Shown: in pieces, positions 6,494-29,418 of the stretch | How the letters are laid out: the number at the start of each line of letters is the position of its first letter | Position numbering within the stretch: position 1 is the stretch's first letter | Sequence record: NC_047979.1 | DNA length: 64,000 nucleotides | DNA from: Escherichia phage Gostya9 | Direction: 5' to 3' (one strand) | Program-made: the position numbers and the translations under genes | Notes under the pieces: generated by a model | Told to the model about the DNA's origin: nothing | Seen by the model: the letters and a program-made list of their open reading frames with translations, nothing else | Database searches by the model: none

Positions 6494-7267
6494 TTATACA
6501 AACTCATACGCCGGGAACTTAGGTGAACGAACTCTATTACCTATAGTCGCTGTGGAACACCCCAATGCTCTAGCTGCTGCACTCATACTAACGTATTCCA
6601 CACCATCCACACGTACTGCCTTAAAGTGAGTAGGAATGGGTGTCTTTCCCTCTCTAATACTTTCTTGGTACTGCTTAGAAGCCTGAGACATCTTGCTCAG
6701 AGCCTCTTCAGTGTGCTTCTTCCCATAAAAGGAGTTATTCTCACCTGTTCGATCCCTACAACTATTACAGTACTCCCCATTAGTGTTATTAAGGGCTAGT
6801 AGGGAACCACAATCAATACATGTTTTTGAGCGAGTAGATACTCCTCCCTTCCAGTTATAGTTTAGCTCGCCTGGTCTACTCCACCGGGCTTTTCTTTCTT
6901 CTTTAGATAAGGACGCTATATGCTTTCTAACACTCTCACTAATTCTCTTAATAATCTCCTCTCTTCGAGGATTATTTGTGAGATTATCCCCGCCACCGTA
7001 GCTACCTATGTTGAACTCTGCTCCCAGCTCCTTAGCCCACTCTTCTTCTAGTAAGAACTGCTGATCTACTTCTTCAGTAGTATCTAAGATGTCAAATACA
7101 AAGTCTTGCTTTCCGGTTTTATCATAAGCTCTCTGTAGAAAAGCGTTATGGTGGTTCCCCTTACTTAGTGAGTAAAAATGTTTACGCTTTCTAGCCTCAA
7201 TATCCTTAGTCGATCCAACGTACTGTCTTCCCGTAGATAGCTGAGTTATACTATAGATGTAAATCAT
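6494..7267 (-). CDS. GIY-YIG homing endonuclease
   Basis: N-terminal IYIYSI...GRQYVGST...R..KH matches the GIY-YIG catalytic module; C-terminal region has repeated NUMOD-like Cys-containing DNA-binding segments. Free-standing gene upstream of thyA. Confidence 0.75.
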   Translation of the reverse strand: MIYIYSITQLSTGRQYVGSTKDIEARKRKHFYSLSKGNHHNAFLQRAYDKTGKQDFVFDILDTTEEVDQQFLLEEEWAKELGAEFNIGSYGGGDNLTNNPRREEIIKRISESVRKHIASLSKEERKARWSRPGELNYNWKGGVSTRSKTCIDCGSLLALNNTNGEYCNSCRDRTGENNSFYGKKHTEEALSKMSQASKQYQESIREGKTPIPTHFKAVRVDGVEYVSMSAAARALGCSTATIGNRVRSPKFPAYEFV

Positions 7268-8097
7268 GCTGCCATTTTACCAGTTAATTTAGGGTGATGT
7301 TTATATTCTTCCAGGATAAAGTCTTTGGGTGTTAGGGCCAGAAGATCTTCTAAGGAAGAGAAGTTTGGCAGTACTAGTCTAGGTAGCTCCAGGGGTTCTC
7401 TAGTTACTTGCTCCTTTACTTGGTCTAGGTGATTTAAGTAAATATGAGTGTCCACAAGATGTCCTGTTACTGACCCAGGTTTCTTTCCTGTGAGTGCAGC
7501 TAAAATATGACAGAGTAAGGCATAGCTAGCTATATTAAATGGTAATCCTAGAAATACATCACAACTAACCTGGTACCATGTTAAGTGTAGGTGTCCATCT
7601 CTTTGGTTTACAGAGAACATTACGTGGCAGGGAGAAAGCACAACGTCGTCAAGTTTTGCAGGATTCCATGCTGAGACTACCATTTTTCTATTATGAAAAA
7701 TATCGGATTTGATATCCTCGATTAGTTTCATAATCTGGTCTGTACCGAAGAAGTCTCTCCAGTTTTTCCCATAAATATATCCCAGATAACCTTCAGTGTA
7801 GCCTTTTTCGACCCCTTGTTTTTCATAATTAGGATGCCAGATAGTACGCTTCTCTCCTCTAGTCCCATGAGTATACTCTTCTAGATCATACAAGTTAGTA
7901 GATCCTGAGAGGAACCACAACAACTCCCCTACCACGGATTTCCACGCTAGTGCTTTTGTTGTTACTGCTGGAAACCCTTTAGTAAGGTCAAAAGAGACAA
8001 TATTATTTAGGGAAGAGATAGTACCTACACCTGTCCGGTCAGACACGTGGGTTCCCTCAGATAAAACTTTATTAATTAAATCAATATACTGTTTCAT
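7264..8097 (-). CDS. thyA: thymidylate synthase
   Basis: PCHVMF...YQVSCDVFLGLPFNIASYALL matches the ThyA active-site region (catalytic Cys in PCH). Confidence 0.9.
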   Translation of the reverse strand: MKQYIDLINKVLSEGTHVSDRTGVGTISSLNNIVSFDLTKGFPAVTTKALAWKSVVGELLWFLSGSTNLYDLEEYTHGTRGEKRTIWHPNYEKQGVEKGYTEGYLGYIYGKNWRDFFGTDQIMKLIEDIKSDIFHNRKMVVSAWNPAKLDDVVLSPCHVMFSVNQRDGHLHLTWYQVSCDVFLGLPFNIASYALLCHILAALTGKKPGSVTGHLVDTHIYLNHLDQVKEQVTREPLELPRLVLPNFSSLEDLLALTPKDFILEEYKHHPKLTGKMAA

Positions 8098-8630
8098 TAA
8101 TAAGTAACCAATTCCTGTACAAATCGCAGGCTGTTATCACTGTTTGCGCCAACTGCATAGACTAATCTAGTGGATTCATAGTTATAATCCAGTATCATAC
8201 TATCTAGGTATGTATCTGCCTCTAGCTTCTGTTCGCTAAAGATTGTAGATACAAAAGCACTTTCTATATGCCCATGTTGGTACATTTCTAGAAGAAGATT
8301 AGCTCCGCCTAGAACTACTGTTTGCTGATCTTTTAGAAAAGTAGGTAATGTATCACCTATCATTGATATGGGAGTGTAAATATCATGTGTAATATCGTCT
8401 GGCAGTGGACGATCAGCACGAATAAATAGGTCAGAAGTTCCAATCATACGTTCCCTAACGGCGTATGGAAGAGCTAAATAAGTACCTGCCCCAATAATAA
8501 TATTATCAGGATTTAGTACATCTAATTGTGAATAAAAAGCATCTAGTTCTTCTTTAAAAGAACCCCAGGGAAGCTTACCTCGGAGGCCGAACTCCCCATT
8601 CGGCCCAACTGCATACATTGCACTAATCAT
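8097..8630 (-). CDS. frd: dihydrofolate reductase
   Basis: MISAMYAVGPNGEFGLRGKLPW N-terminus typical of DHFR; 177 aa; start overlaps the thyA stop. Confidence 0.8.
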   Translation of the reverse strand: MISAMYAVGPNGEFGLRGKLPWGSFKEELDAFYSQLDVLNPDNIIIGAGTYLALPYAVRERMIGTSDLFIRADRPLPDDITHDIYTPISMIGDTLPTFLKDQQTVVLGGANLLLEMYQHGHIESAFVSTIFSEQKLEADTYLDSMILDYNYESTRLVYAVGANSDNSLRFVQELVTY

Positions 8631-9772
8631 AGGAAATCTCCAAATTCATTGCCCAGATCTTTTAGAGTATCAGTAGAAGTCTCAGTTACCTGACCTACAC
8701 GATAGGCTGCACCAATCTGGATTTCTTGTGGAGCAGGCTGTAGAGAAGTAGTATCCAACCAGTTCATGATCCACGGAATAGGGTTTTTAGTGATTACTGG
8801 TAAGTGACTAGGCCATTCTACGCCAATGTGCATAAACGCGTTACGTCCCACAAAGTACAGGTACTCTTCTAGCAGTTCTGCATTCAGACCAATCAGACTG
8901 CGACCTTTGAAAATGAAATGACCCCATTCAATTTCAGTTTTCAGAGTTTTCAGGAGCTGTGCTGGTGCTTTAGCCACTGCCTCATCTACCAGATCTTTGT
9001 CAAACTGCTGGAACATAATCTGGATGATTGTTTTAGACATCTGGGTGTGCAGAGCTTCATCTTTAGCGATCAATTGCAGATTTTTAGCGATACCTTGCAG
9101 AATATCGTTCTCTGCTAACGCAAAGGTGCACGCAAAGGATGCGTAGAATTGCATTGCTTCCAGACCGTAGATTGCAAAATAAGCATCTAACAGTTTAGCC
9201 TGAGTTTCACGCTTAACTTCAGGGAACTCAGTTTCTGGGTACGTATTGTCACCACGATGATCACGTACTGCGATGAAATACTGACCTAACTGGTACAGTT
9301 CATCGAACAGCTCAACAGAATCTGCGATACGTGCAAATGCTTCTTGGTTTTTAGTTACAGAATCAATAAATTCTGCCGGATCAGTCAGCACATTACGAAT
9401 AATGTTACTATAAGCACGGCTATGCAGGTCTTCAAAGTAGCTCCACTGCTTGAGCATACCTTCTAGTTCTGGACGGCTTACCAGCGGCATAATAGCTGCT
9501 TCAGGCGCTCGACTGATAAAGGAATCAGTTTGAGTCTGCCATGCTAAGTTCAGGAGTGTGATTTCCTGAATTTCACGTGGGAGATTGGGCCATTGTTTCT
9601 TATCGGCTTCTAAACTGATTTCTGTCTCAGTCCAAAATTGCGAGCGTTGCAGAAGTGCCAGACGCTCTAATTCTGGGTGTGCTACGCGTACATAATCTGC
9701 GATACCTAGAGAATCGCCCAGGAAAAGATCAGCGTTAGTATGATCCCAATTCAGGTTTAGTAAAGTAGTCAT
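8627..9772 (-). CDS. nrdB: ribonucleotide reductase (class Ia) small subunit
   Basis: 381 aa ferritin-like R2 protein with conserved iron-ligand and tyrosyl-radical region; promoter at 9804-9832. Confidence 0.85.
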   Translation of the reverse strand: MTTLLNLNWDHTNADLFLGDSLGIADYVRVAHPELERLALLQRSQFWTETEISLEADKKQWPNLPREIQEITLLNLAWQTQTDSFISRAPEAAIMPLVSRPELEGMLKQWSYFEDLHSRAYSNIIRNVLTDPAEFIDSVTKNQEAFARIADSVELFDELYQLGQYFIAVRDHRGDNTYPETEFPEVKRETQAKLLDAYFAIYGLEAMQFYASFACTFALAENDILQGIAKNLQLIAKDEALHTQMSKTIIQIMFQQFDKDLVDEAVAKAPAQLLKTLKTEIEWGHFIFKGRSLIGLNAELLEEYLYFVGRNAFMHIGVEWPSHLPVITKNPIPWIMNWLDTTSLQPAPQEIQIGAAYRVGQVTETSTDTLKDLGNEFGDFL

Positions 9773-9803
9773 TGATTTTCCTCTTTCTCACTATTTCAGG
9801 AAT

Positions 9804-9832
9804 ATTATAGCAAATCAGATAGCGATTAGCAA
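9804..9832 (-). promoter_or_regulatory. sigma70-type early promoter (TTGCTA-N17-TATAAT)
   Basis: Minus strand TTGCTA, 17-bp spacer, TATAAT, 32 nt upstream of the nrdB ATG. Confidence 0.5.
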
Positions 9833-9848
9833 GTAAAATTTCAAAGAA

Positions 9849-9872
9849 AAAGGAGACCCGAAGATCTCCTTA
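9849..9872 (-). terminator. rho-independent terminator after nrdA
   Basis: Hairpin AAGGAGATC-TTCG-GGTCTCCTT followed on the minus strand by TTTCTTT. Confidence 0.5.
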
Positions 9873-9878
9873 TTTTTA

Positions 9879-12209
9879 TTAGATAGTACAACCACCAGAA
9901 GCACAGCCCGCTGCTTCTTCACCAGCCCCACCACCATTTGCAGTGTTGAAGTTAGCATAATACCAAGTCTTCCAACCATATTTAACAGCAGTCATGAAAT
10001 CACGAACTACTACTGGGCCAGGAATAATTTCATTCTCAAACTTGGTGTAGTCATAGTACATATTCGTACTGATAGACTGACTGAAGAATTTCTGCATAGT
10101 TGCTACCCATTTGATCCATTCAATACGATCCACATCATAAGCCAGTTTATAGCTCATGAGAGTATCCCAATCAGTTGCACCTGGAGCGATTGCAATTACT
10201 TTATTCACTGCACTACCCTTGATAGATACAATCTTACGAGGTGGTTCAATAGAGTTAGTAACCCCCAACAGAACGGAAGAACTTTCTCCAGGCATCTGCG
10301 CAGTCAGAACAGAGTTACGCATACCGTATTTCAGAATATCTGCACGCAGAGATTCCCAATCCATTTCTAGACCTACGGATACCAGCTCATCAACAGTTTT
10401 CTTATACGTGTCGATTACCAGTGTTCCTTTAGATGGTTTAGTACGATTAAACCATTCACACGCACCTTGCTCTTTGGCTAGACGTACAGAGGCTTTATGC
10501 AGGAAGTAAGACAGTTTTTCAGCTTCACGATGAATCCAGTTACGTGCTTCAACGCCTTCATAAGCCAAACCTTCCGCCGCCATTGCACCTGCTGCGTTCA
10601 TCAGACCAATACCAACGTTACGACGTTTCTTAGCTGTATATTCCATAGTTGGGAACGGGTAATCCTGAATTTCAATGATGGTATCAACGAATTTCAGAAG
10701 AATATAGCAAGTTTTTTCCCACTCAGCCAGAGATTCCATGCGTCCAAGTACAACACCACCTAAGTTACACAGAGATACTTCCCCAATATCCTCCGGCTTC
10801 ATTTGATCAAGTTGTTCTTTTGTTTTATACAGCTCTGTAATGTGGTGGAATGGGCGTGTAGGCTGAGTAATTTCAAGGCATAAGTTACTCATACGGATCG
10901 GATCAAGGAAGTTACCGTGACGATTAGATTCCCCGATGTGGTGCGCATACATACGTCCTGTTTCCATTCGGATACGTAGCCAAGTATCTAGGATTTCTTT
11001 TGCAGAGACTTTAGGAGCTGCTGGAACTGTTTTTCCTTCGTGGTCGATCTTTGTAAGAGATGCCACACGTTTCTCCGCTGCCGCATAGATTTCTTCAAAT
11101 TTAGCCTCGTCATCACTATAAAACGCTTCATGAACTTCTGGAGCATAGAAGTATGACATTAGCGTAATATCTTCATTTTTCAGATAACGTTTTAACAAAA
11201 GATTATTAAAGTTCAGAGAATAATCCATCTTATCGATTTTATTCTCGTCTGTAGCACGTTGTTGCTTAACCTGCATCAACTGAATGATTTCAGGGTCAAA
11301 GTAAGGATAGGATACAGTAGCAGAACCACCACGAGTTTGCTGAGTATTAGCCTTTACTGATCGGTCAATGTGTCGATAATATGGCAGTTTTCCGGAATGC
11401 GGGAATGCCCCGTTTCGCACCGGATCAGCAATTGATCGGCTTTCAAGATGATACCCGATTCCCGCTCTGGCTGCAACCATTTTGAAGACGATGTGTTCGG
11501 CTGTGTCGATTGAATCCAATGTGTCAGTGGAATCAACGAGGCAACAACTAGCAAATCCACGGTCACTAGAGCGCAAGCCAACCAATGGCGGCGTAGGAAC
11601 GTTGATCTTGTGGAGTGACATTGCATTGTAGAGATCGATTGCATCTAGAATTGTCCAGTTAGGTTGAGATAGCATCGCCATTGCCATGCCCATATAGGCA
11701 AACTGCGGGGTTTCGTAAATTTCGCCAGTTGCGATATTACGACGGGAATACTTATCAAAGAATTGTTTCAGTCCTCCACTAGTGAAAAGACGGTCGCGAT
11801 CATGGTCGATAACCTGATTCAGAGCCTCAAACTGCTCATCGGTAATCCATGCACTCATGTCTTCCCATGCACCTACACTAACCATATGATCGTGGAAGAA
11901 GCGTAGAGAAGGCGGTTCGAAGGAATCATAAAGGCGTTTACGCATCTGCGCAAGACGTAATTCCTTTGCTGGCACGTCGTATGCTGGGTTATCTTTGATA
12001 AGACTTTCAGCAGCTTTAATTAACGCATCCATCAGAGTATCGGAATCTACAACCCCTTTAGGTAGAGTTTTTTGAGCAGCCATAGTAATGGCTGACCAAC
12101 TTACATCAACTGTTTTGCAACCATACTCTGCCCAACCATTGAGTTTTTCAGGAGCAAAGTCTTCTACAGTACCGTCACGTTTAATTACTTTTTCAATGCG
12201 ATGGCTCAT
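9879..12209 (-). CDS. nrdA: ribonucleotide reductase (class Ia) large subunit
   Basis: About 777 aa with ATP-cone-like N-terminus (MSHRIEKVIKRDGTVEDF) and a class I R1 catalytic core. Start placed at ATG 12209 with AAAGGAAAA RBS; the track ORF extends upstream from a non-ATG codon. Confidence 0.85.
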   Translation of the reverse strand: MSHRIEKVIKRDGTVEDFAPEKLNGWAEYGCKTVDVSWSAITMAAQKTLPKGVVDSDTLMDALIKAAESLIKDNPAYDVPAKELRLAQMRKRLYDSFEPPSLRFFHDHMVSVGAWEDMSAWITDEQFEALNQVIDHDRDRLFTSGGLKQFFDKYSRRNIATGEIYETPQFAYMGMAMAMLSQPNWTILDAIDLYNAMSLHKINVPTPPLVGLRSSDRGFASCCLVDSTDTLDSIDTAEHIVFKMVAARAGIGYHLESRSIADPVRNGAFPHSGKLPYYRHIDRSVKANTQQTRGGSATVSYPYFDPEIIQLMQVKQQRATDENKIDKMDYSLNFNNLLLKRYLKNEDITLMSYFYAPEVHEAFYSDDEAKFEEIYAAAEKRVASLTKIDHEGKTVPAAPKVSAKEILDTWLRIRMETGRMYAHHIGESNRHGNFLDPIRMSNLCLEITQPTRPFHHITELYKTKEQLDQMKPEDIGEVSLCNLGGVVLGRMESLAEWEKTCYILLKFVDTIIEIQDYPFPTMEYTAKKRRNVGIGLMNAAGAMAAEGLAYEGVEARNWIHREAEKLSYFLHKASVRLAKEQGACEWFNRTKPSKGTLVIDTYKKTVDELVSVGLEMDWESLRADILKYGMRNSVLTAQMPGESSSVLLGVTNSIEPPRKIVSIKGSAVNKVIAIAPGATDWDTLMSYKLAYDVDRIEWIKWVATMQKFFSQSISTNMYYDYTKFENEIIPGPVVVRDFMTAVKYGWKTWYYANFNTANGGGAGEEAAGCASGGCTI

Positions 12210-12289
12210 TTGGTTTTCCTTTTTATGGTTATCAGAATTTAGGAAATAGTTTACTTTATTCTCAGTCATTTGGCAAATAAAATTTTCTG

Positions 12290-12330
12290 ATAGAAAAGGC
12301 CCGGGTATTTTCATACCCAGGCCTTCTGTG
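12290..12330 (-). terminator. rho-independent terminator / hairpin between phoH and nrdA
   Basis: Stem GGCCCGGGTAT / ATACCCAGGCC with one mismatch and U-rich flanks. Confidence 0.4.
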
Positions 12331-12353
12331 TTGTCAGTCTAGTTTTTGGCCAC

Positions 12354-12551
12354 TTAAGTTCTCAGCAGAATATCTATTGAGGTACTTAGTTCATTATAAT
12401 TGAAGGGCCGATTTGGATTTGAGGTTACAATTTTCCACGCTAGGGTAGTCTTAGGACTATCTTCCCCTTCCTTACGTGTAATCATATTAGCAGCGCTCAA
12501 TGAGGTATGATGAATTTTAGTTTTTCGGCGTAGATGTACAACGTTTCCCAT
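12354..12551 (-). CDS. small basic hypothetical protein (65 aa), uncertain
   Basis: ATG at 12551 with GGAAGGTG upstream, in the gap between phoH and the nrdA terminator. May be non-coding. Confidence 0.3.
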   Translation of the reverse strand: MGNVVHLRRKTKIHHTSLSAANMITRKEGEDSPKTTLAWKIVTSNPNRPFNYNELSTSIDILLRT

Positions 12552-12552
12552 A

Positions 12553-13305: not shown

Positions 13306-13381
13306 AAATAACACTCCTATAGTGTACTTCGCTTCTAACAGAGGATCAACAAAAAGATCTTGTTTATCAACTTACAAATAT

Positions 13382-13709: not shown

Positions 13710-15536
13710 ATGACAGAGAATGAATTAATTGAGAATTGCAAAGGTCTGCTCACTCTAACTGCGGATAAAGACTTACAACATAATAATGCTAATAAGCCTA
13801 GTGAGATGTTCCATACTCAAAGAGACTTATTGGCCGGAGAAATCAACAAGTATTTAGTATCGCAGGAATTACCCAAACATCTATTAGACGCCCATAATCT
13901 AGGTAAGATACACATTCATGATATGGATTACAGAGCGCAGGGGTACACTAACTGTTGCTTAGTAGACCTTGGTGGCATGCTGAAGAATGGTACTAAAATT
14001 GGTAATGCAAATATTGAAACTCCTAAATCCATAACTACTGCATGTGCAATCACTGCCCAGATTATTGCACAAGTATCTGGTGCTCAGTATGGTGGCACCT
14101 CTATTGATCGTATCGACGAGGTTCTAGCCCCGTATGTCAGAAAGTCTTACAATAAACATCTGGGTCGTGGTCTACGTTGGCTCAAGGATGAAAGAAAAGC
14201 TGCCGTGTACGCTACTGAGCTTACTGAAAAAGAGTGTTATGATGCATTCCAAGCTCTAGAGTATGAAACTAATTCATTATTTAACTCTAACGGGCAGACT
14301 CCTTTTGTTACGCTTGGCTTTGGGCTAGGACAGGGGTGGGAGGAAAGGATGATTCAGAAAGCCATCCTCCAAAATCGTATTAAAGGTTTAGGTGCTGCTG
14401 AGTCAACCCCTATCTTCCCTAAACTAGTATTCTCAGTTAAAGAAGGATTAAATAAAAATCCAGGGGATCCTAACTACGATATAAAACAGCTAGCACTTGA
14501 GTGTTCTGCTACTCGTATGTATCCAGACTATTTAAGTTACGAGAAAGTTGTAGCTGTTACTGGTGATTTTAAAGCCCCTATGGGTTGTCGTAGTTTTTTA
14601 TCTGCTATCCCCTCTGGAGAAATTGCAGGGCGTAATAATTTAGGTGTAGTGTCTATCAATCTACCTATGGTTGCTGCTGAGGCAGATGGAGTTTTTGAAG
14701 ATTTCTGGGATATTCTAGACAAATATGTGGATGAGGCTTTTGAAGCGCATGACTTCTTCTTAAACAGACTGAAGAAAGTTAAGGCTAAACAAGCCCCTAT
14801 TCTTTATATGCACGGCGGTTTTGGTGTACGTTTAGATGGGGAAGAATATGTATGGCCTATTTTTGAAGGTAGATCTTCTGTATCTCTTGGGTACATTGGG
14901 GTCTATGAGATGTGTCAAATAATGTTTAGTTTACCACAGACTCATAGGGACTGTATTGAGTTTACAGAGGAAGTTCTCACTCACCTAAAAAATCGTTGCG
15001 AAGTTAAAGCTAACGAGACTAATCTTGGGTTTAGCTTGTATGCAACTCCTAGTGAGTCTCTATGTAATCGCTTTAATAAACTACTGGAACGTAGATTCCC
15101 AGAGTATTCTTGGCTAACAGATAAAGGCTATCTCACTAATAGTCACCATTTGGACGTAAGAGAGAAGGTAGCTCCGGATACTAAATTTGAGTATGAAGCT
15201 CATTTCACCAAAATAGCTAATGGTGGTAATATATCGTTTGTGGAACTACCACAAATGAAAAAGTTCCATAAAGCTCTTGAATACGTAGTAGATAAGGGAT
15301 TAGAATGTAGCCATTATATTGGTGTTAATATACCAATTGATGAGTGCTTCAACTGTGGGTATATGGGTGAATCTGTTGCCTCTGAACGTGGGTTTGTATG
15401 TCCGAGTTGTGGATCTGAAGAAATAGAGGTTACACGTAGGGTTTGTGGGTACCTGGGATCCCCGGGCAGTAGGCCTTTCAATTCTGGGAAACAAAAAGAA
15501 GTGCTTGGTAGAGTAAAACACTTAAATCTTAAGTAA
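13710..15536 (+). CDS. nrdD: anaerobic ribonucleoside-triphosphate reductase (class III)
   Basis: 608 aa; C-terminal CxxC...CxxC zinc site followed by the glycyl-radical motif RVCGYLG. Confidence 0.85.
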   Translation: MTENELIENCKGLLTLTADKDLQHNNANKPSEMFHTQRDLLAGEINKYLVSQELPKHLLDAHNLGKIHIHDMDYRAQGYTNCCLVDLGGMLKNGTKIGNANIETPKSITTACAITAQIIAQVSGAQYGGTSIDRIDEVLAPYVRKSYNKHLGRGLRWLKDERKAAVYATELTEKECYDAFQALEYETNSLFNSNGQTPFVTLGFGLGQGWEERMIQKAILQNRIKGLGAAESTPIFPKLVFSVKEGLNKNPGDPNYDIKQLALECSATRMYPDYLSYEKVVAVTGDFKAPMGCRSFLSAIPSGEIAGRNNLGVVSINLPMVAAEADGVFEDFWDILDKYVDEAFEAHDFFLNRLKKVKAKQAPILYMHGGFGVRLDGEEYVWPIFEGRSSVSLGYIGVYEMCQIMFSLPQTHRDCIEFTEEVLTHLKNRCEVKANETNLGFSLYATPSESLCNRFNKLLERRFPEYSWLTDKGYLTNSHHLDVREKVAPDTKFEYEAHFTKIANGGNISFVELPQMKKFHKALEYVVDKGLECSHYIGVNIPIDECFNCGYMGESVASERGFVCPSCGSEEIEVTRRVCGYLGSPGSRPFNSGKQKEVLGRVKHLNLK

Positions 15537-22338: not shown

Positions 22339-22347
22339 AAAATTTAT

Positions 22348-23356: not shown

Positions 23357-23373
23357 CTACTTAAAAATTTCAG

Positions 23374-23402
23374 TTGCTTAATCCTACAATTCTTGATATA
23401 AT
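23374..23402 (+). promoter_or_regulatory. sigma70-type early promoter (TTGCTT-N17-TATAAT)
   Basis: TTGCTT, 17-bp spacer, TATAAT. Confidence 0.5.
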
Positions 23403-23459
23403 ATTCTCATAGTTTGAAAGAACTATTCTGTTTAATTCTTAATTAAGGAAATATAAAAT

Positions 23460-23870
23460 ATGACTACTCCAACTCAGTGGACTGATGAACTGTTTGAAAA
23501 AATGTCTTCCGAATACGTTGCTCGTATGGAGCAATTCCCAGAGGATGAACGTCCGAGTGTTAGCATGGAAATTGTTAGTGAAATTGCCCAGGAAAATGGT
23601 GTAACTCCGAACGGTTTTCGTATGAAGCTGACTAAAGCAGGTTTGTATATCAAGAAAGCTGCTGGCTCCGCTTCTAAATCTAGTGCATCTACTGGAGAAA
23701 AAGCTTCCGGTGGTTCTCGTACCTCCAAAGCCCAGGCCCATGCGGATCTTCGTTCAGCATTCTCTGATGCTGGCTTAGCACCAGATTTTCTGGATGATGC
23801 AATTATCGACAAACTGACTGGTAAAGCGGCTGCTCATCTGGCTGAAGCAATCCGAGCTATCACTAAGTAA
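23460..23870 (+). CDS. hypothetical protein with Ser/Ala-rich linker (136 aa), codon-optimised
   Basis: ATG with AAGGAAA RBS; low-complexity central segment (AAGSASKSSASTGEKASGGSRTSKA); codons biased toward ctg/cgt/ggt. Confidence 0.6.
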   Translation: MTTPTQWTDELFEKMSSEYVARMEQFPEDERPSVSMEIVSEIAQENGVTPNGFRMKLTKAGLYIKKAAGSASKSSASTGEKASGGSRTSKAQAHADLRSAFSDAGLAPDFLDDAIIDKLTGKAAAHLAEAIRAITK

Positions 23871-23884
23871 TAGGGAGATTATAC

Positions 23885-24172
23885 ATGAATAAACAAGAAA
23901 TTATCTCCGCATGTGAAGCCCATAATGAGTTCTACCTTCATTATGAGAAACTACGCCAAAAGGGTACTACATACCTTCAGGGTACTATGGATTTTTCTGA
24001 TAAGTACCTAAGTAAACGTTTTGCTCAGGAGCGTATCCGTCAACCAAAAGATGACGAAATTCTAGTGTTTAGTCGCACTAATGACAGCTTCCGTTTCATT
24101 CCTGTTGCGAAAGTTCGTCGCATTACGAGCCTTCAGTCAGAGTTAGATCGTGCTTCTCCAGTAGGCCGATAA
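23885..24172 (+). CDS. hypothetical protein (95 aa)
   Basis: ATG with GGGAG RBS; followed by the terminator at 24184-24206. Confidence 0.55.
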   Translation: MNKQEIISACEAHNEFYLHYEKLRQKGTTYLQGTMDFSDKYLSKRFAQERIRQPKDDEILVFSRTNDSFRFIPVAKVRRITSLQSELDRASPVGR

Positions 24173-24183
24173 GATAGCAATTA

Positions 24184-24206
24184 AGCCCCTATATGGGGCT
24201 TTTTGT
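24184..24206 (+). terminator. rho-independent terminator
   Basis: Hairpin AGCCCC-TATAT-GGGGCT followed by TTTTT. Confidence 0.65.
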
Positions 24207-24223
24207 GTATTTGAGAAACGTAA

Positions 24224-24532
24224 ATGAGCGATCAGGTAAACCAAAACTATGAAGGACACGTTGATGATCAGTCAATCCTTCTATGGGAAAAAGAAGGGGA
24301 ACAAATAAGATTGACAGTATCTGAATTTCGTGGGAATCTATACATGGGAATTAGGTATTGGCTCCAGGATATTACTGGAGAATGGTTTCCAACGAAATCC
24401 GGCTTCTCTTTTCCGTACACTCTAGAAACTACTTCGCAGCTATTCTATGCTTTTACGCAAATCCTTAGTGAATCTGAGGTTCTTGCCGAAGTACAGAAAC
24501 GAGCTGAAGAACTCAAAGCCAAGAATGCCTAG
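24224..24532 (+). CDS. hypothetical protein (102 aa)
   Basis: ATG-initiated ORF flanked by two terminators. Confidence 0.55.
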   Translation: MSDQVNQNYEGHVDDQSILLWEKEGEQIRLTVSEFRGNLYMGIRYWLQDITGEWFPTKSGFSFPYTLETTSQLFYAFTQILSESEVLAEVQKRAEELKAKNA

Positions 24533-24546
24533 TTCTTGGCTTTTTC
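24518..24546 (+). terminator. rho-independent terminator
   Basis: Hairpin GCCAAGAA-TGCCTAG-TTCTTGGC followed by TTTTT. Confidence 0.65.
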
Positions 24547-24559
24547 TTTATAAATGTAT

Positions 24560-24588
24560 TTGCTTTCAACTCAGTTTTGTTATATAAT
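24560..24588 (+). promoter_or_regulatory. sigma70-type early promoter (TTGCTT-N17-TATAAT)
   Basis: TTGCTT, 17-bp spacer, TATAAT, 30 nt upstream of the ligase N-terminal gene. Confidence 0.55.
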
Positions 24589-24619
24589 ATTTATATAAAT
24601 TAATGAGAGATATAAATAA

Positions 24620-25591
24620 ATGACTAATGTAAAAGAATTTATTAAACGCTGTCAAGAAGCATATTATCAGGGCATGTCTTTAATCTCTGATGAGGAGTAT
24701 GATCGCCTGGTAAAACGCTTCCCGTTAGAGGAAGAGATCGGGCCTAAGGGTGATATTCCACACCTATATCGTATGTATTCTTTACAGAAAGTTTATTATA
24801 ATCGTGGAGATAAACCCCCATTTGACCCGTTAGGTCAAGTAGAAACTGATAAGTTAGATGGTTGTGCGATTTCCCTGCTATATATTAACGGTGAATTTGT
24901 TCAAGCACTAACTCGTGGTAATGGTATTCTGGGAAATGATGTCACAAGCAACGTAAGATTGCTGAACATCCCTAAAAAGATTTCCCAAAAAGTACCTACT
25001 CAAATCACTGGTGAAGTTCTAATTACAAAAGAAGTAGAAAATAAACGTAACTTTGCCTCTGGTGCTATTAACCTCAAAGATAGTGATGATTTCATGCAAC
25101 GTATCGGGGAAGGTGGTTTAATCTTCGTTGCATACGGTATCCAGTGTTCTGCTGAATCTGTAGGTATTACAGAAGCGTATTTAAAAGATATGCTTTGGCT
25201 AGAGAATGAGAACTTCTTAACAGTTGTTAATGTGCGTTCCTTCTTTAAATGGATTCCGACGGACGGTAAAGTTGTTCGTATTAATGACAATAACAAATTC
25301 TTCCGTGAAGGTTGGACTAATAAATTTCCTCGTGGGGCATTCGCTATTAAAGAGGATGAAGAAGGCGAGATTACAACTCTTACTAAAGTTGAATGGCAGG
25401 TAGGGGCTTCTGGTAAAGTAACTCCAGTCGGTTATTTTGAACCAGTAATTATTGATGATGCTACAATTGTTAAAGCGACTCTTAATAATGTTGATTATAT
25501 TAACTCTCTCGATCTAGAGATCGGTTGCCAGATTCGAGTGATTCGTGCTGGTGGTGTAATCCCGTGCATAGTAGAGCGAGTTTATGATTAA
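24620..25591 (+). CDS. ligA: NAD-dependent DNA ligase, N-terminal subunit (adenylation + OB-fold domains)
   Basis: 323 aa with the KxDG adenylation motif (DKLDGCAIS) and an OB-fold segment (EWQVGASGKVTPVGYFEPVIIDDATIVKATLNN); ends before the Zn-finger region. Confidence 0.75.
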   Translation: MTNVKEFIKRCQEAYYQGMSLISDEEYDRLVKRFPLEEEIGPKGDIPHLYRMYSLQKVYYNRGDKPPFDPLGQVETDKLDGCAISLLYINGEFVQALTRGNGILGNDVTSNVRLLNIPKKISQKVPTQITGEVLITKEVENKRNFASGAINLKDSDDFMQRIGEGGLIFVAYGIQCSAESVGITEAYLKDMLWLENENFLTVVNVRSFFKWIPTDGKVVRINDNNKFFREGWTNKFPRGAFAIKEDEEGEITTLTKVEWQVGASGKVTPVGYFEPVIIDDATIVKATLNNVDYINSLDLEIGCQIRVIRAGGVIPCIVERVYD

Positions 25592-25641
25592 TACATAACC
25601 CTTTGCTACCCCTCTACCATATCGGAATTATAAAGTGGTTA

Positions 25642-25670
25642 TTGACATTTTCGCCGCTTAGGTATATACT
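25642..25670 (+). promoter_or_regulatory. sigma70 promoter in the ligase inter-subunit gap (TTGACA-N17-TATACT)
   Basis: TTGACA, 17-bp spacer, TATACT. Confidence 0.45.
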
Positions 25671-25734
25671 ATTATCATTCAGTTGAGGGATAGAAAGTTA
25701 TGGCGAGGGTAAGCAAAGTTAGTTAAAATTGTAG

Positions 25735-25763
25735 TTGCTAAATGCTTAAATACTTGCTATAAT
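25735..25763 (+). promoter_or_regulatory. sigma70-type early promoter (TTGCTA-N17-TATAAT, extended -10 TGcTATAAT)
   Basis: TTGCTA, 17-bp spacer, TATAAT, then ATAAATTGATAAGGAAG box/RBS before the ATG at 25794. Confidence 0.55.
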
Positions 25764-25793
25764 ATTTATATAAATTGATAAGGAAGAAATTTG

Positions 25794-26573
25794 ATGAAAA
25801 TCGAAATTCCAACACAATGTCCCTCTTGTGGTTCTAAGCTAGATCTTGTCAACGGACAATTATTCTGTCGTAATAAGTCCAACTGTCCAGCGCAATCAAG
25901 TAAGTTAATTGAGAACTTCTGTACAAAAATGAAGTTAAAGGGCTTTGGCCCGAAAACTATTGAGAAGCTGGAGCTGACGAAGATTTCAGAACTATTTTAC
26001 CTAACCGAAGAAGATTTGGTTAGAGCCGTGGGTAGCAAGGTTGCCGCTAAGTTAATTAGCGAATTAAATACTAAAGTTCGCGGAGACATTGACTTTGGTT
26101 CAGTTCTCGGTTCTTTAGGAATCCCTCTAATTGGAGAGGTTGCAGCAAAGAAATTATCCCAAAATTGCACTAGCTTCCACGATGTGAAGGCTGACGGCAG
26201 GGCTGGAGAAAACTATAAAGCCTGGCTAAATTCCCCACAAGGCAAGGATGTTATCGAATTACCGTGGAAATTCACAACCGGTATTAAAGGTGCTAAAGCT
26301 GAGGTCAGCATTACTGATGGTCTAGTAGCCCAACCAAATGGAATCACGGTGTGTATTACCGGATCTTTGCAAGATTTTGCAAATAGAACGGATGCAACAA
26401 ACTATCTAGAAGGTCTAGGGTATACTGTTAAAAAATCAGTTACCAAAGACGTTAAATACCTCATCTGTGAGGATGAATCTAAGCGTTCTTCCTCATCTTA
26501 TAAGAAAGCCGAAACGAATGGGATAGAAATCCTGTCGATTAAAGAACTATTGGAGAAAAATAATAATGTCTAA
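25794..26573 (+). CDS. ligB: NAD-dependent DNA ligase, C-terminal subunit (Zn-finger, HhH, BRCT-like)
   Basis: Starts with the four-Cys zinc-finger region (CPSCGSKLDLVNGQLFCRN...C) that follows the OB-fold in bacterial LigA, then HhH-like and C-terminal BRCT-like segments; 259 aa. Confidence 0.7.
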   Translation: MKIEIPTQCPSCGSKLDLVNGQLFCRNKSNCPAQSSKLIENFCTKMKLKGFGPKTIEKLELTKISELFYLTEEDLVRAVGSKVAAKLISELNTKVRGDIDFGSVLGSLGIPLIGEVAAKKLSQNCTSFHDVKADGRAGENYKAWLNSPQGKDVIELPWKFTTGIKGAKAEVSITDGLVAQPNGITVCITGSLQDFANRTDATNYLEGLGYTVKKSVTKDVKYLICEDESKRSSSSYKKAETNGIEILSIKELLEKNNNV

Positions 26574-27333
26574 ACTGAACTGGAACGTAGAAGGTGTAAC
26601 CGAGTCTCTGAAAGCAAAAGCCACTGCTCTGGGTGTTGCTGTAATCTCTCAAGAACAAGTAGCTGCTATCGCTGCTGAACTGGCTGCTGAAACTGGCAAA
26701 GACGTTACCGCTCGCTCTGTTGGCTCTAAGCTGCGTAAAGAAGGTTTCGAAGTACAGAAAGCTAACGAAGTACAGAAATCCCCGTGGACTCCTGAGCAGG
26801 AAGCTGAACTGGTTGATTTCCTGAACTCTCATGCTGGTCAGTATACTTATGCTGAAATCGCTGCTGCTGTAGCTGGTGGTCAATTTGGTGCTAAGCAGGT
26901 ACAGGGTAAGATCCTGAGTCTGGAAATGACCGCTTCTGTTAAACCAACTGAAAAAGCTGCTGCTGTTCGTTCCTTCACTCCTGATGAAGAAACTGATTTT
27001 GTTAATCAGGTTGTTGCTGGTGCTACTATTGAAGCTATTGCTGCTCACTTCGGTCGTAATATCAAGCAGATCCGTGGTAAAGCTCTGAGTCTGCTTCGTG
27101 AAGGTCGTATCGCTGCTATGCCGGTACAGGAAACTTCAAGTGCTAAAACTCGTGAAGATCTGCTAGAAGGTCTGGATCTGGCTAACATGACTGTTGCTGA
27201 GATCGCTGAGAAAACTGGTAAGTCTGAGCGCGGTGTTAAATCTATGCTGTCTCGTCGTGGTCTGGTTGCTAAGGACTATGATGGTGCCGCTAAGCGTGCT
27301 AAACTGGATGCAAAAGCTGCGGCTGCTGAATAA
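26566..27333 (+). CDS. abundant DNA-binding protein candidate with three internal repeats
   Basis: 255 aa; strongly host-optimised codons; three related segments (AAIAAELAAETGK..., YAEIAAAVAGGQFGAKQVQGKILSL, ATIEAIAAHFGRNIKQIRGKALSL) resembling HTH units. Position before helicase/primase/polymerase would fit a D5-like protein. Confidence 0.5.
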   Translation: MSKLNWNVEGVTESLKAKATALGVAVISQEQVAAIAAELAAETGKDVTARSVGSKLRKEGFEVQKANEVQKSPWTPEQEAELVDFLNSHAGQYTYAEIAAAVAGGQFGAKQVQGKILSLEMTASVKPTEKAAAVRSFTPDEETDFVNQVVAGATIEAIAAHFGRNIKQIRGKALSLLREGRIAAMPVQETSSAKTREDLLEGLDLANMTVAEIAEKTGKSERGVKSMLSRRGLVAKDYDGAAKRAKLDAKAAAAE

Positions 27334-27352
27334 TCTGGTAAATTAAACCTAA

Positions 27353-27382
27353 GGGGTGGGGGCTATGCCTCTACCCCTTTTT
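27353..27382 (+). terminator. rho-independent terminator
   Basis: GC-rich hairpin GGGGTGGGGGC / GCCTCTACCCC (with G-U pairs) followed by TTTTT. Confidence 0.55.
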
Positions 27383-27415
27383 GCATTTAGAAGGCACGAA
27401 AGCGTGCAAAGGAGA

Positions 27416-28888
27416 ATGACCTTGTTTAACGTGCAAGCTGTAGTGTTGAAGATGCTTCTAGCTTCCGAACAGAAGCAAATAGCATTGGAAACATTCTCAA
27501 AACTGCATAAAGATCATTTTAATGACGCTTTCTCCTCAATTTACCAAGCCGTCCAGAATTATTATAAAAAATATAACACAATGCCGTCCATTGACGCACT
27601 GATGCTTGAGGCTAATAGGAACGCCCGCCTTTCTCAAGCTCTAGTCGTTTTAGCTAACACTCAAATTCCAGAAGTTAGCATGGAACAGGCACTTGAAGTC
27701 CTAGAGGCCGAGTATACACAGGATTTATTCCTGAAGCTTCTAGAAACAGACGTGCTTCAAGATTTAACAATGCTGGATCAGGGAGAAATTCTTAACCGAG
27801 TTGCCTCCCTTCACTTAAAATTAGAAGAGAAAGTAACGAATACTGGAAAAGTATTCAACGCAGATAACATGCGTATTTTCCAGAGAGAAGAAGATACCAA
27901 ACTGAACTTAATCGCTCTTGGTATTTGTAATGAGTTCGACGCTCAAATTGGTTTAGCTCGCACAGAAACGTTACTGCTTGGTGGTTGGCGTGGTACTGGT
28001 AAATCCATTATCTGTTCAAACATACAGGTTCAGCAATATTTGAATGGAGATATTGCTCCATACTTCTCAATTGAGATGAAAGAACATGAAGTATTTAGAC
28101 GTAATCTAGCTATGTTAGCTGGTGTATCAGCACTAGCAATGCGTAATAATACTCTAGAAGGTGCAGCTCTGTTGAGATTAGCCAGAACTAGAGCTAGGAT
28201 GTTTAACGGTGGTGAAGAGCTTTTCGATAACTTCGTTAAACAGTACACAATGGCTAAGATGAGTGATTTCTACGATATGGAAAGTAAGCTAATAGAAGGA
28301 TATGAGCTACATACTCCTATGATTATTGTTTATGATCCTGAGCTGTCTATTACAACAGTTGACGTAGAATTAAATAAATTAGTTGCTAGATATGGGGATA
28401 AAGTTACAGTAGCTTTACTAGACTATATTAACCAAACCCGACTTCCAGACTCTAAAACCATTGATATGTATGACTGGAAAGAACAGATGGTTGTTAGCTC
28501 GTCTTTCAAATCTATCTGCCAGAAACATAACGTGGCTGGTGTAGCTCCTTACCAGATCGATCAAGATGGTAGAACACGTATGTCGAAGGGGATTCTTGAT
28601 TCCGCAGACATGGCTGCTAATCTTAATGCTGCAAAAGCTGATAATGGTCAAGGTGCTATTATGTTTGACTTCGTTAAGACTCGGTCTTCTGATAGCGTGA
28701 AGTTTATGCCTAAAATGAACTGGGAAACCCTGCGGATGGATAACACTACCAACCTAGCAATGGAAGATATATCTCAAATGGAAGCTGAGTTCGTTATCCC
28801 TATTGAGAAGGATAAGCCGACTCAATCTAAACGTGCTAAGAAAGACAAAGCTGAAAATTCAACAGGTGAACAGGCCAGCGATATATGA
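27416..28888 (+). CDS. DnaB-like replicative DNA helicase
   Basis: About 490 aa with RecA-like P-loop (LLGGWRGTGKSIIC). ATG at 27416 with AAAGGAGA RBS, downstream of the terminator; the track ORF begins upstream inside the hairpin. Confidence 0.6.
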   Translation: MTLFNVQAVVLKMLLASEQKQIALETFSKLHKDHFNDAFSSIYQAVQNYYKKYNTMPSIDALMLEANRNARLSQALVVLANTQIPEVSMEQALEVLEAEYTQDLFLKLLETDVLQDLTMLDQGEILNRVASLHLKLEEKVTNTGKVFNADNMRIFQREEDTKLNLIALGICNEFDAQIGLARTETLLLGGWRGTGKSIICSNIQVQQYLNGDIAPYFSIEMKEHEVFRRNLAMLAGVSALAMRNNTLEGAALLRLARTRARMFNGGEELFDNFVKQYTMAKMSDFYDMESKLIEGYELHTPMIIVYDPELSITTVDVELNKLVARYGDKVTVALLDYINQTRLPDSKTIDMYDWKEQMVVSSSFKSICQKHNVAGVAPYQIDQDGRTRMSKGILDSADMAANLNAAKADNGQGAIMFDFVKTRSSDSVKFMPKMNWETLRMDNTTNLAMEDISQMEAEFVIPIEKDKPTQSKRAKKDKAENSTGEQASDI

Positions 28889-29418
28889 TAACACAGGAAA
28901 GGCTAAAAGAGTTATTTGATTACTCCCCAGTTTCTGGGGAGTTTACTAGAAAAGTATCTAGAGGTAATCAGAAAGCTGGTAGTATAATAACCAGAAAAGA
29001 CTCTAACGGTTATATAATTATTGGTATAGATGGCAAGGATTACAAAGCCCATCGGATGGCTTTTCTATTTATGGAAAATACATTGCCGGAAAAAGTAGAC
29101 CATGTAAACAGAATACCTTTTGATAATAGGTGGTGTAATCTAAGAGACGCCACAGCTCAGGAAAATAGTAGAAATAAAACCGCATGTAGTAAGTCTGGAT
29201 ATTTGGGAGTTGCTTGGGATATCGAAAAACAAAGATGGAGAGTTCAAGTAAGAGACTCTAATAGCACTCTTAAAAATGGTGGCAGATTTAAGTATGAAGA
29301 GCTAGAGCTAGCTGTAAATTCAGCAAATATATTAAGGACTAAGTTACATGGAGAACGTGCTGTTATAGAAATTTTTGATACATCTAATTATCCTTCACTG
29401 GAGGAGTTAAATTCATGA
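28885..29418 (+). CDS. HNH homing endonuclease
   Basis: HVNRIPFDNRWCNLRDATAQENSRN matches the HNH catalytic motif (H...N...N). 177 aa, inserted between helicase and primase with overlapping start/stop codons. Confidence 0.7.
   Translation: MITQERLKELFDYSPVSGEFTRKVSRGNQKAGSIITRKDSNGYIIIGIDGKDYKAHRMAFLFMENTLPEKVDHVNRIPFDNRWCNLRDATAQENSRNKTACSKSGYLGVAWDIEKQRWRVQVRDSNSTLKNGGRFKYEELELAVNSANILRTKLHGERAVIEIFDTSNYPSLEELNS

What the first reader, a model, noticed from the sequence alone, without database searches (positions are those of the whole stretch)
6494..29418. Two free-standing homing endonuclease genes wedged between essential genes
A GIY-YIG endonuclease (6494-7267) sits immediately upstream of thyA, and an HNH endonuclease (28885-29418) is inserted between the helicase and primase with overlapping start/stop codons. 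Together with the polymerase intein this gives three selfish nuclease elements in 64 kb, likely drivers of mosaicism between co-infecting relatives.
Basis: partly seen in the sequence, partly recalled or inferred. Interest (0 to 1): 0.4.

Follow-up and report, generated by a model that had tools for sequence, protein, structure and literature searches.

The report
Two free-standing homing endonucleases, T5-like phage
Two selfish DNA-cutting genes do sit between core genes of this T5-like phage; this kind of element is already known, but one is a stand-alone relative of the classic T4 intron nuclease I-TevI that travels with its own unusual thymidylate synthase gene.

Summary
Both ORFs exist at the stated coordinates, and profile searches support both folds. 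ORF 6494-7267 lies on the minus strand, so it is transcriptionally downstream of thyA, not upstream. It is a full-length I-TevI homologue with every catalytic and zinc-finger residue conserved. About 1.5% of T5-like genomes carry it, always fused to a divergent 277-aa thyA allele. That thyA+nuclease cassette is 97-99% identical between phages whose neighbouring frd gene is only 80-86% identical. All seven relatives examined lie inside or beside thyA genes. I therefore predict that it cuts the ordinary T5-type thyA at the Gln-Arg codons (CAACG). The linked allele has Val there.

ORF 28885-29418 is T5 hegJ, an I-HmuI-like HNH domain plus an AP2 domain. It is an exact 530-bp insert, present in about 14% of T5-like phages. 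Every carrier has 8-21 almost entirely synonymous changes in the first ~95 nt of primase, which is nearly invariant in non-carriers. This marks the likely target and immunity region.

With the polymerase intein, the window holds three selfish nuclease elements. The kind is known; the targets are predictions.

The parts
6494..7267 (-). Free-standing GIY-YIG homing endonuclease, a full-length I-TevI homologue (257 aa): catalytic domain, Zn-finger linker, NUMOD3 helix and helix-turn-helix DNA-binding domain.
   Evidence: All I-TevI residues Y6, Y17, R27, H31, H40, E75, N90 and C151/C153/C164/C167 are conserved. dN/dS 0.06-0.18. No intron RNA around it.
7264..8097 (-). 277-aa thymidylate synthase allele that travels with the endonuclease. 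It is about 55% aa and 55-70% nt identical to the T5-type 279-aa allele and reads WYQVS where canonical TS reads YQRS.
   Evidence: All 10 metagenome contigs with this exact protein carry the intact endonuclease downstream.
7525..7572 (-). Stretch of thyA homologous to the I-TevI/I-BmoI homing site (Gln-Arg codons through LPFNIAS). Here it reads CAG GTT AGT..., so the CAACG cleavage motif found in T5-type thyA and T4 td is absent. Predicted immunity determinant.
   Evidence: Motif requirements come from PMC12774661 and PMC3664794. That this confers immunity is inference.
8095..8150 (-). 56-nt block at the 3' end of frd (including the thyA ATG), essentially invariant (at most one mismatch) in all three thyA allele classes. 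Upstream homology arm and recombination junction of the cassette.
6393..6493 (-). Downstream arm: hairpin AAATAGCC(C)TTCGGGGCTATT plus promoter-like TTGCTT-N17-TATAAT. Homology with endonuclease-less phages resumes directly after the stop codon.
   Evidence: T5 annotates a promoter at the equivalent place.
28885..29418 (+). Free-standing HNH homing endonuclease, orthologue of T5 hegJ (T5.120, P-TflX): I-HmuI-like HNH module plus C-terminal AP2 DNA-binding domain. It is an exact 530-bp insert between helicase and primase.
   Evidence: dN/dS 0.05-0.3.
29415..29510 (+). First ~96 nt of primase. This is a haplotype that co-varies with the HNH allele: 8-21 almost entirely synonymous changes against a nearly invariant endonuclease-less consensus. 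Predicted target and immunity region.
27356..28888 (+). DnaB-like replicative helicase (T5 D6). Its 3' end shows no divergence hotspot.
29415..30305 (+). DNA primase (T5 pri), the flanking host gene.
31307..32383 (+). Intein (359 aa, Cys1 ... His-Asn / Cys+1) with a LAGLIDADG_2 endonuclease domain inside DNA polymerase. This is the third selfish nuclease element.

Best explanation
Both ORFs are free-standing homing endonuclease genes that spread between co-infecting T5-like phages by 'intronless homing'. The nuclease breaks the allele of a phage that lacks the gene, and repair from the carrier genome copies in the nuclease gene together with adjoining DNA that is itself uncuttable.

(1) GIY-YIG element.
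SHOWN:
- It is a full-length I-TevI-family enzyme with an intact active site.
- It is physically fused to a divergent thyA allele.
- The thyA+nuclease unit (window ~6494-8150) is 97-99% identical in phages whose flanking frd is 80-86% identical.
- The unit's ends fall exactly at an invariant 56-nt block in frd and at the stop codon.
- Relatives are invariably inside thyA group I introns or next to thyA.
INFERRED:
- It binds and cuts the ordinary T5-type thyA in the active-site coding region, at or near CAA|CGC (Gln-Arg of YQRS), as I-TevI and I-BmoI do.
- Its own thyA is immune because that clade has Val (GTT) in place of Arg.
- Because the two thyA alleles are only ~60% identical, repair must start in the conserved arms. 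The whole thyA gene is therefore replaced along with the nuclease.

(2) HNH element (hegJ).
SHOWN:
- It is an exact 530-bp insert with ATGA overlaps at both ends.
- It is present in ~14% of T5-like phages and absent from more distant Demerecviridae.
- It combines an I-HmuI-like fold with an AP2 domain.
- A cluster of synonymous substitutions in primase nt 1-95 is confined to carriers and co-varies with the HNH allele.
INFERRED:
- It nicks or cuts the invariant sequence at the start of primase in phages that lack it.
- The silent changes protect carriers and are co-converted with the gene.
For: GIY-YIG:
- Domain and residue conservation.
- Only 6 near-identical copies among T5-like records; the next best match is I-TevI at 35% over the full length.
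- Mosaic profile and sharp boundaries.
- Cassette 97-99% identical versus frd 80-86% in 14 other thyA-277 carriers, 13 with the endonuclease intact.
- 10 of 10 contigs with this exact thyA carry the nuclease.
- A degenerate copy in phage SP3, deleted between 8-bp repeats.
- All seven relatives examined are thyA-associated. Four lie in split thyA genes whose exon 1 ends right after CAG CGT; a group I intron RNA hit was obtained for two of them. Three are free-standing.
- In a rough 9-sequence neighbour-joining tree without support values, free-standing and intron-borne forms are interleaved.
- T5-type thyA carries the cognate I-TevI motif CAACG at the same spacing as T4 td, whereas the window allele reads CAGGT.
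- The fifth-position G is indispensable for I-TevI and I-BmoI (PMC12774661; PMC3664794).

HNH:
- for fold and domains.
- Occupancy.
- First 96 nt of primase: 14.9% divergence between carriers and non-carriers versus 5.5% in the rest of the gene. Non-carriers differ from each other by 1.3% there versus 5.0% elsewhere. Poisson P is 7e-5 to 5e-2 per genome, and almost all changes are synonymous.

Both genes are under purifying selection. The general mechanism is described in PMC2988022 and PMC10448857.
Against: - No cleavage or cross data exist for either protein; both targets are predictions.
- The window thyA still has a CNNNG (CCAGG) one nucleotide upstream of the homologous position.
- Two other free-standing relatives sit beside thyA alleles that keep the Arg codon. 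Loss of Arg is therefore not a general immunity rule.
- The Arg-less TS clade also includes My1 and DU_PP_V, which have no endonuclease, so the substitution may predate the association.
- A third thyA allele class occupies the same slot without any nuclease. Allele swapping there therefore does not require one.
- The invariance of primase nt 1-96 in non-carriers could reflect a translational-coupling constraint that changes once an ORF is inserted.
Confidence: 0.75

Rival explanations
1. The endonucleases are passengers or dead relics. The mosaic pattern is produced by ordinary homologous recombination at the conserved arms, not by nuclease-initiated gene conversion.
For: The thyA slot holds three allele classes between identical arms, and two of them have no nuclease. 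The neighbouring ORF169 slot is also variable without any nuclease.
Against: - All catalytic residues are intact, and dN/dS is 0.05-0.3 in both genes.
- 10 of 10 contigs with the exact window-type thyA keep the intact endonuclease ORF. Only SP3 shows decay.
- The synonymous cluster next to hegJ is hard to produce by neutral recombination alone.
Confidence: 0.12
2. The GIY-YIG enzyme is an active homing endonuclease, but its target is not the thyA active-site region. The target could be the thyA 3' end, the hairpin/promoter spacer, or the third (30%-identity) thyA allele.
For: - Free-standing endonucleases often cut hundreds of bases from their own gene (PMC2988022).
- The enzyme is only 35-48% identical to intron-borne relatives.
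- Free-standing relatives sit beside thyA alleles that retain CAACGC or CAAAG.
- The third allele class also has an in-phase CNNNG, CAGAG.
Against: - Every examined relative is tied to thyA. The intron-borne ones interrupt thyA exactly after the Gln-Arg codons.
- The T5-type allele carries the exact I-TevI motif and spacing.
- The downstream spacer is identical in carriers and non-carriers, so it cannot discriminate between them.
Confidence: 0.3
3. One or both proteins have been domesticated for a phage function. hegJ might serve as a replication-associated nickase between helicase and primase. The GIY-YIG protein might act as a repressor or as a weapon against competing phages, rather than as a purely selfish element.
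For: - Both are translationally coupled to core genes.
- I-TevI itself doubles as a transcriptional autorepressor (my own background knowledge; PMC12774661, states only that some homing endonucleases act as transcriptional repressors).
- T5 virion DNA carries site-specific nicks (annotation).
- Both genes are under purifying selection.
Against: - About 85% of T5-like phages, including BF23, lack hegJ, and about 98% lack the GIY-YIG gene. Neither can therefore be needed for replication.
- Distant Demerecviridae have helicase and primase directly abutting.
Confidence: 0.08

Closest known systems
I-TevI (phage T4 td group I intron endonuclease) and its isoschizomer I-BmoI (Bacillus mojavensis thyA intron)
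   Same: - Same full domain order: GIY-YIG, Zn finger, NUMOD3, helix-turn-helix.
- All catalytic and zinc ligands conserved.
- 35% identity over the whole length.
- Same associated gene, thymidylate synthase.
   Different: - Not intron-encoded. No intron RNA is detectable, and the ORF is fused to the 3' end of an uninterrupted thyA.
- Immunity of the home allele cannot come from intron interruption, so it must come from sequence differences in thyA.
- Target and cleavage chemistry are untested.
T4 Seg endonucleases (SegF/gene 56, SegG/gene 32) and the concept of intronless homing and marker exclusion
   Same: A free-standing GIY-YIG gene between conserved genes. It is promoter-less, read through from the upstream gene, and associated with localised replacement of the neighbouring gene (PMC2988022).
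   Different: Seg proteins are distant from I-TevI in their DNA-binding parts. Here the whole neighbouring gene (a ~55% identical xenologue) is swapped as a unit, rather than a short co-conversion tract.
F-CphI (cyanophage S-PM2) and 'collaborative homing'; T4 mobE trans-homing
   Same: A free-standing endonuclease predicted to cut at a site that is an intron insertion site in relatives. Free-standing and intron-borne forms of one lineage coexist (PMC2988022, PMC6083498).
   Different: F-CphI belongs to a different nuclease family and targets psbA. In the present case the free-standing and intron-borne enzymes are clear homologues and the gene is thyA. No intron lacking an endonuclease was found in the T5-like set.
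T5 hegJ (T5.120, 'putative H-N-H endonuclease P-TflX'), relative of the T5 F-TflI/II/IV HNH endonucleases
   Same: Orthologue: 97.6% nt identity, same position and same ATGA overlaps.
   Different: None of substance. It is the same gene in another phage, and its activity is unproven even in T5.
I-HmuI / I-BasI (Bacillus phage SPO1/Bastille DNA polymerase intron HNH nicking endonucleases)
   Different: Free-standing, and it carries an AP2 domain in place of I-HmuI's C-terminal helix-turn-helix. Whether it nicks or makes a double-strand cut is unknown.

Membership tests
GIY-YIG homing endonucleases of the I-TevI type | N-terminal GIY-YIG catalytic domain with Tyr6, Tyr17, Arg27, His31/40, Glu75 and Asn90 | tested here: met
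   Pfam PF01541 1.6e-8. PDB 1MK0 8e-9. All residues conserved in the alignment with I-TevI.
GIY-YIG homing endonucleases of the I-TevI type | Linker with a four-Cys zinc finger, a NUMOD3 minor-groove helix and a C-terminal helix-turn-helix DNA-binding domain | tested here: met
   NUMOD3 5.6e-8. I-TevI_DNA-bd 26.9 bits (cut-off 27) and I-TevI_ZnF 20.7 bits are both just below the curated cut-off. PDB 1I3J 4.9e-10 over aa 126-251. C151/C153/C164/C167 equivalents are present.
GIY-YIG homing endonucleases of the I-TevI type | Encoded inside a self-splicing group I intron | tested here: not met
   No Rfam hit at E<=1 in window 5800-8700, thyA is uninterrupted and the ORF start overlaps the thyA stop. 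It is therefore a free-standing (F-type) relative, not an I-type enzyme.
Homing endonuclease genes in general | Sporadic presence among close relatives at a fixed site | tested here: met
   GIY-YIG: 6 of roughly 440 T5-like records. hegJ: about 60 of 438, an exact 530-bp insert.
Homing endonuclease genes in general | The element plus adjoining DNA is more conserved than, or discordant with, the flanking backbone (co-conversion) | tested here: met
   thyA+GIY 97-99% versus frd 80-86%. The primase nt 1-96 haplotype tracks the HNH allele.
Homing endonuclease genes in general | Site-specific cleavage of the empty allele, immunity of the occupied allele, and super-Mendelian inheritance | not testable with these tools
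   Needs enzyme assays and phage crosses. Only sequence-based predictions are given.
HNH (His-Me finger) homing endonucleases, HNH_3 + AP2 architecture | Beta-beta-alpha-metal HNH motif with a conserved His and Asn residues | tested here: met
HNH (His-Me finger) homing endonucleases, HNH_3 + AP2 architecture | C-terminal AP2 DNA-binding domain | tested here: met
T5 hegJ orthologue group | Same position between D6 helicase and primase, with high identity to T5.120 | tested here: met
   97.6% nt identity to T5 69614-70147, with the same overlaps.

The most novel reading that the evidence does not exclude
The GIY-YIG gene and its thyA form a natural 'cleave-and-rescue' cassette. An I-TevI/I-BmoI-type nuclease, whose cleavage depends on the G of the supposedly unchangeable Arg166 codon of thymidylate synthase, is welded to a rare TS lineage that works without that arginine: Val or Pro at 166, and Lys at 127. 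Only 5 of the 120 nearest cluster representatives lack the Arg. This would mean two things. First, a catalytic residue thought to lock the host gene to the parasite has been evolutionarily bypassed. Second, that bypass is what lets the nuclease live outside an intron. In a rough neighbour-joining tree of nine sequences (no support values), intron-borne and free-standing forms are interleaved, which suggests repeated switches between the two on the same target gene.
Probability: 0.3. Interest if true: 0.65.

Novelty: new member of a known kind. Interest (0 to 1): 0.4.

Why it matters
The finding as stated is ordinary. T5-like phages are known to differ mainly by homing endonuclease genes (PMC10644984). 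hegJ has been annotated in T5 for two decades, and the GIY-YIG ORF is already labelled 'homing endonuclease' in SelmaRatti and SP01.

What this work adds is a set of testable predictions:
- The classic td/I-TevI system has free-standing cousins in T5-like phages that stay tied to thymidylate synthase.
- A specific target and immunity determinant can be proposed for each element: the Gln-Arg codons of thyA, and nt 1-95 of primase.
- The linked thymidylate synthase belongs to a small clade lacking the phosphate-binding Arg166. This raises both an enzymological question and a question about host-parasite escape.

SelmaRatti (Bas34), T5 and BF23 are laboratory phages, so the crosses are straightforward.

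Tried and rejected
- phmmer of both nucleases against all window ORFs found no paralogues.
- I first suspected that ORF169 (5883-6392) belonged to the GIY-YIG cassette. I rejected this: it occurs in endonuclease-less Kenya-K38 and is absent from endonuclease-positive SP01 and Kenya-K36.
- I first read the blastn result as showing that only the 3' part of thyA diverges from T5. The alignment shows the whole gene is a different allele.
- I considered that Arg-to-Val arose as an escape mutation after the nuclease arrived. This is weakened by My1 and DU_PP_V, which have Pro there and no nuclease.
- I tested whether all free-standing relatives sit beside Arg-less thyA. They do not: L086 and L087 keep Arg, although L087 has the unusual LGSGYN in place of LGLPFN.
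- Rfam at the gathering threshold found no introns in the related split thyA genes. The E-value mode found them in L084 and L090. The window shows nothing even at E<=1.
- Literature searches found no paper describing this thyA-linked endonuclease or a hegJ target.
- One paper search failed because a search term was too short.


Full report
OBSERVATION

The window is a T5-like (Tequintavirus) genome segment, collinear with T5 40.9-105 kb. Both ORFs exist exactly as stated.

ORF 6494-7267 is on the minus strand. Its ATG overlaps the thyA stop (ATGA), so it lies downstream of thyA in the frd-thyA transcription unit rather than upstream. ORF 28885-29418 overlaps the helicase stop and the primase start by ATGA on each side.

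Profile searches support both folds:
- GIY-YIG + NUMOD3 + I-TevI DNA-binding domain for the first ORF, and HNH_3 for the second.
- PHROG homing-endonuclease families at 1.5e-34 and 4.3e-57.

The polymerase intein (359 aa, window 31307-32383, LAGLIDADG_2) is also real. Relative to T5, the window lacks hegH, hegI and T5.141. It shares hegJ and gains the GIY-YIG gene, ORF169 and the intein. I saw no further nuclease element. That rests on phmmer with the two endonucleases against all window ORFs, the whole-window comparison with T5, and inspection by eye of ORFs in T5-nonhomologous segments. It does not rest on a profile scan of every ORF.

THE GIY-YIG ELEMENT

The protein is a full-length homologue of I-TevI, the endonuclease of the T4 td (thymidylate synthase) intron.
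- It is 35% identical over residues 4-251.
- It matches both solved I-TevI domains (1MK0 and 1I3J).
- It conserves Y6, Y17, R27, H31, H40, E75, N90 and the four zinc-finger cysteines.

Near-identical copies (~98% aa) occur in only six phage records: SP01 (two records), SP1a, SelmaRatti and Kenya-K36/K42. Roughly 440 T5-like records exist.

Aligning the rnh-to-frd region from eight phages shows that thyA comes in two alleles.
- A 279-aa T5-type allele.
- A 277-aa allele carried by every endonuclease-positive phage.

The two are only ~55% (aa) and 55-70% (nt) identical across the whole gene. The change-over is razor sharp. Upstream, a 56-nt block at the end of frd is essentially invariant (at most one mismatch) in all phages. 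Downstream, homology resumes directly after the stop codon, at a hairpin and a promoter.

The thyA+endonuclease unit is 97-99% identical in 14 other genomes or contigs carrying this thyA allele (13 with the endonuclease intact), whereas their frd is only 80-86% identical to the window's. The window's frd is T5-like (95-100%). The cassette therefore sits in different backbones, which is direct evidence of recent horizontal movement.

All 10 metagenome contigs encoding exactly this thyA protein carry the intact endonuclease. Phage SP3 keeps the thyA allele but has lost most of the nuclease through a deletion between 8-bp repeats. That is the expected decay stage of a homing element. dN/dS is 0.06-0.18 for the nuclease and ~0.10 for thyA.

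WHAT IT PROBABLY CUTS

I looked up the genomic context of seven relatives at 39-60% identity. All are tied to thymidylate synthase.
- Four lie inside split thyA genes whose first exon ends just after CAG CGT (the Gln-Arg of YQRS). Rfam group I intron hits support the intron in L090 (51.7 bits) and L084 (47.2 bits).
- Three are free-standing beside intact thyA. One of them (60% identical, locus L082) has the same overlapping arrangement and the same YQVS thyA.

In a rough neighbour-joining tree of nine sequences, without support values, free-standing and intron-borne forms are interleaved.

I-TevI needs CNNNG (cognate CAACG) and I-BmoI needs NNNNG. The fifth-position G has proved irreplaceable (PMC12774661), and G-2 is critical for I-BmoI (PMC3664794). 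That G is the middle base of the Arg codon.

The sequences at this site are as follows:
- T5-type thyA: CAA CGC TCT GTG GAT TGT TTC CTC GGT TTA CCT TTC AAT ATT.
- T4 td homing site: CAA CGC TCA GTA GAT GTT TTC TTG GGT CTA CCG TTT AAT ATT.
- Window allele: CAG GTT AGT TGT...

The T5-type allele is thus almost the same as the T4 td homing site, while the window allele lacks the motif.

My best reading is that the enzyme cuts ordinary T5-type thyA at the Gln-Arg codons and that its own allele is immune. Because the alleles are too different to recombine internally, repair replaces the entire gene together with the nuclease. This is inference, and there are caveats.
- A CCAGG lies one nucleotide upstream in the window allele.
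- Two other free-standing relatives neighbour thyA alleles that keep Arg.
- The Arg-less clade includes My1 and DU_PP_V (Pro at that position), which have no nuclease.
- A third thyA allele class (30% identity) occupies the same slot without a nuclease.

THE HNH ELEMENT

It is the orthologue of T5 hegJ (T5.120, 'putative H-N-H endonuclease P-TflX'), with 97.6% nt identity.

Of 438 T5-like records, about 60 carry an insert at this site. In the rest, the helicase stop directly overlaps the primase start. In IMG/VR loci, 10 of 34 tequintavirus-level loci (primase at least 95% identical) have an insert of exactly 530 bp, with HNH alleles 64-99% identical. The more distant Demerecviridae have none.

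The first 96 nt of primase are nearly invariant in non-carriers: 1.3% pairwise divergence versus 5.0% in the rest of the gene. Every carrier has 8-21 substitutions there. All are synonymous in seven of the ten carriers, and the other three have 1-2 amino-acid changes. Positions 51, 63, 66 and 69 are changed in almost all carriers, and different sets accompany different HNH alleles. Divergence between carriers and non-carriers is 14.9% in that stretch versus 5.5% in the rest of the gene. The helicase side shows nothing comparable.

This is the classic signature of a target site with immunity polymorphisms that are co-converted with the nuclease gene. Given the resemblance to I-HmuI, the break may be a nick (PMC3017599). 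That remains untested.

COMPARISON AND VERDICT

Both elements fit the established picture of free-standing homing endonucleases and intronless homing (PMC2988022). They also fit the picture of nuclease genes sitting at boundaries of exchange between phages (PMC10448857). Differences in homing endonuclease content are already recognised as the main source of variation among T5-like genomes (PMC10644984). The finding as written is therefore correct but ordinary.

The less ordinary part is that the I-TevI lineage exists outside introns in T5-like phages while staying tied to thymidylate synthase. Here it is coupled to a rare TS clade lacking Arg166 and Arg127. Only 5 of the 120 nearest cluster representatives lack the Arg, and the clade is under purifying selection. 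Whether that TS is active, and whether the missing arginine is what confers immunity, can be tested directly with available laboratory phages.

Noticed in passing
window 7264-8097 (-); also L082 3171-4004, L011 2001-2834, L012 2001-2834: The 277-aa thymidylate synthase clade lacks the dUMP-phosphate-binding Arg166 (Val in the window, L082 and P0133; Pro in My1 and DU_PP_V) and has Lys in place of Arg127. It is nevertheless under purifying selection (dN/dS ~0.1). Only 5 of the 120 nearest cluster representatives lack the Arg.
   Followed up: partly
L066, L067, L071, L072, L077-L080 at ~4528-5370: A third allele class occupies the same thyA slot between the same invariant arms. It is a 278-aa TS-like protein only ~30% identical to the T5 or window alleles (FQRSND...LLGQVFNMVQCY), and no endonuclease accompanies it.
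   Followed up: partly
window 5883-6392 (-): ORF169 has no Pfam or PHROG match. The slot between thyA/endonuclease and rnh holds ORF169, a 93-aa ORF, a 66-aa ORF or nothing in different T5-like phages, independently of the endonuclease.
   Followed up: partly
window 9773-9878, ~22100 and ~54955-54970: Relative to T5, the window lacks hegH (between nrdB and nrdA), hegI (after the origin-binding protein gene) and T5.141 'endonuclease' (next to the tape-measure gene). Endonuclease content differs at at least six sites between the two phages.
   Followed up: yes
L007 (Salmonella phage SP3) 1563-1819: SP3 keeps the 277-aa thyA, but its GIY-YIG gene is deleted between two 8-bp direct repeats (CAGTACGT). 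Only about the last 42 codons remain.
   Followed up: yes
window 31307-32383 (+): A LAGLIDADG intein sits in DNA polymerase (Cys1, His-Asn/Cys+1). Its DNA is found in only 6 phage records: smaug, Kenya-K36/K42/K44 and SelmaRatti.
   Followed up: partly
L087 1557-2465: A thyA next to another free-standing I-TevI-like gene keeps CAA CGC but reads LGSGYN instead of the highly conserved LGLPFN. This is exactly where the T4 td intron inserts and where I-TevI binds, so it may be a second route to immunity.
   Followed up: no
L084 7012-7368: A permuted tmRNA (Rfam RF04321, 82 bits) lies in a phage contig that also carries a T5 A2-like gene and an intron-split thyA.
   Followed up: no
L083 11-250; L094/L095 1460-1867; L101 1459-1971: Further mobile elements occur around the nrd-frd genes of relatives: a group I intron hit beside an HNH_3/NUMOD4 gene (L083), and an extra HNH_3 ORF between nrdB and frd (L094, L095, L101).
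   Followed up: no
relatives seen (VSe12, SHSML-45, Shivani; slur09, SP15, DaisyDussoix): Some T5-like phages have a second HNH gene just upstream of the helicase, where the first ~22 helicase codons differ. Others have a ~387-bp insert, apparently the extra ORF annotated 'hypothetical protein' in those records; its exact position within the helicase-to-polymerase stretch was not determined.
   Followed up: no
window 13947-14675: Part of nrdD is only 68% identical to T5, while the flanks are 87-96% identical. This is another local mosaic patch with no nuclease gene seen next to it.
   Followed up: no
window 409-480 (-): A tRNA gene (Rfam RF00005, 39 bits) lies at the left end of the window, corresponding to the T5 tRNA region.
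   Followed up: no
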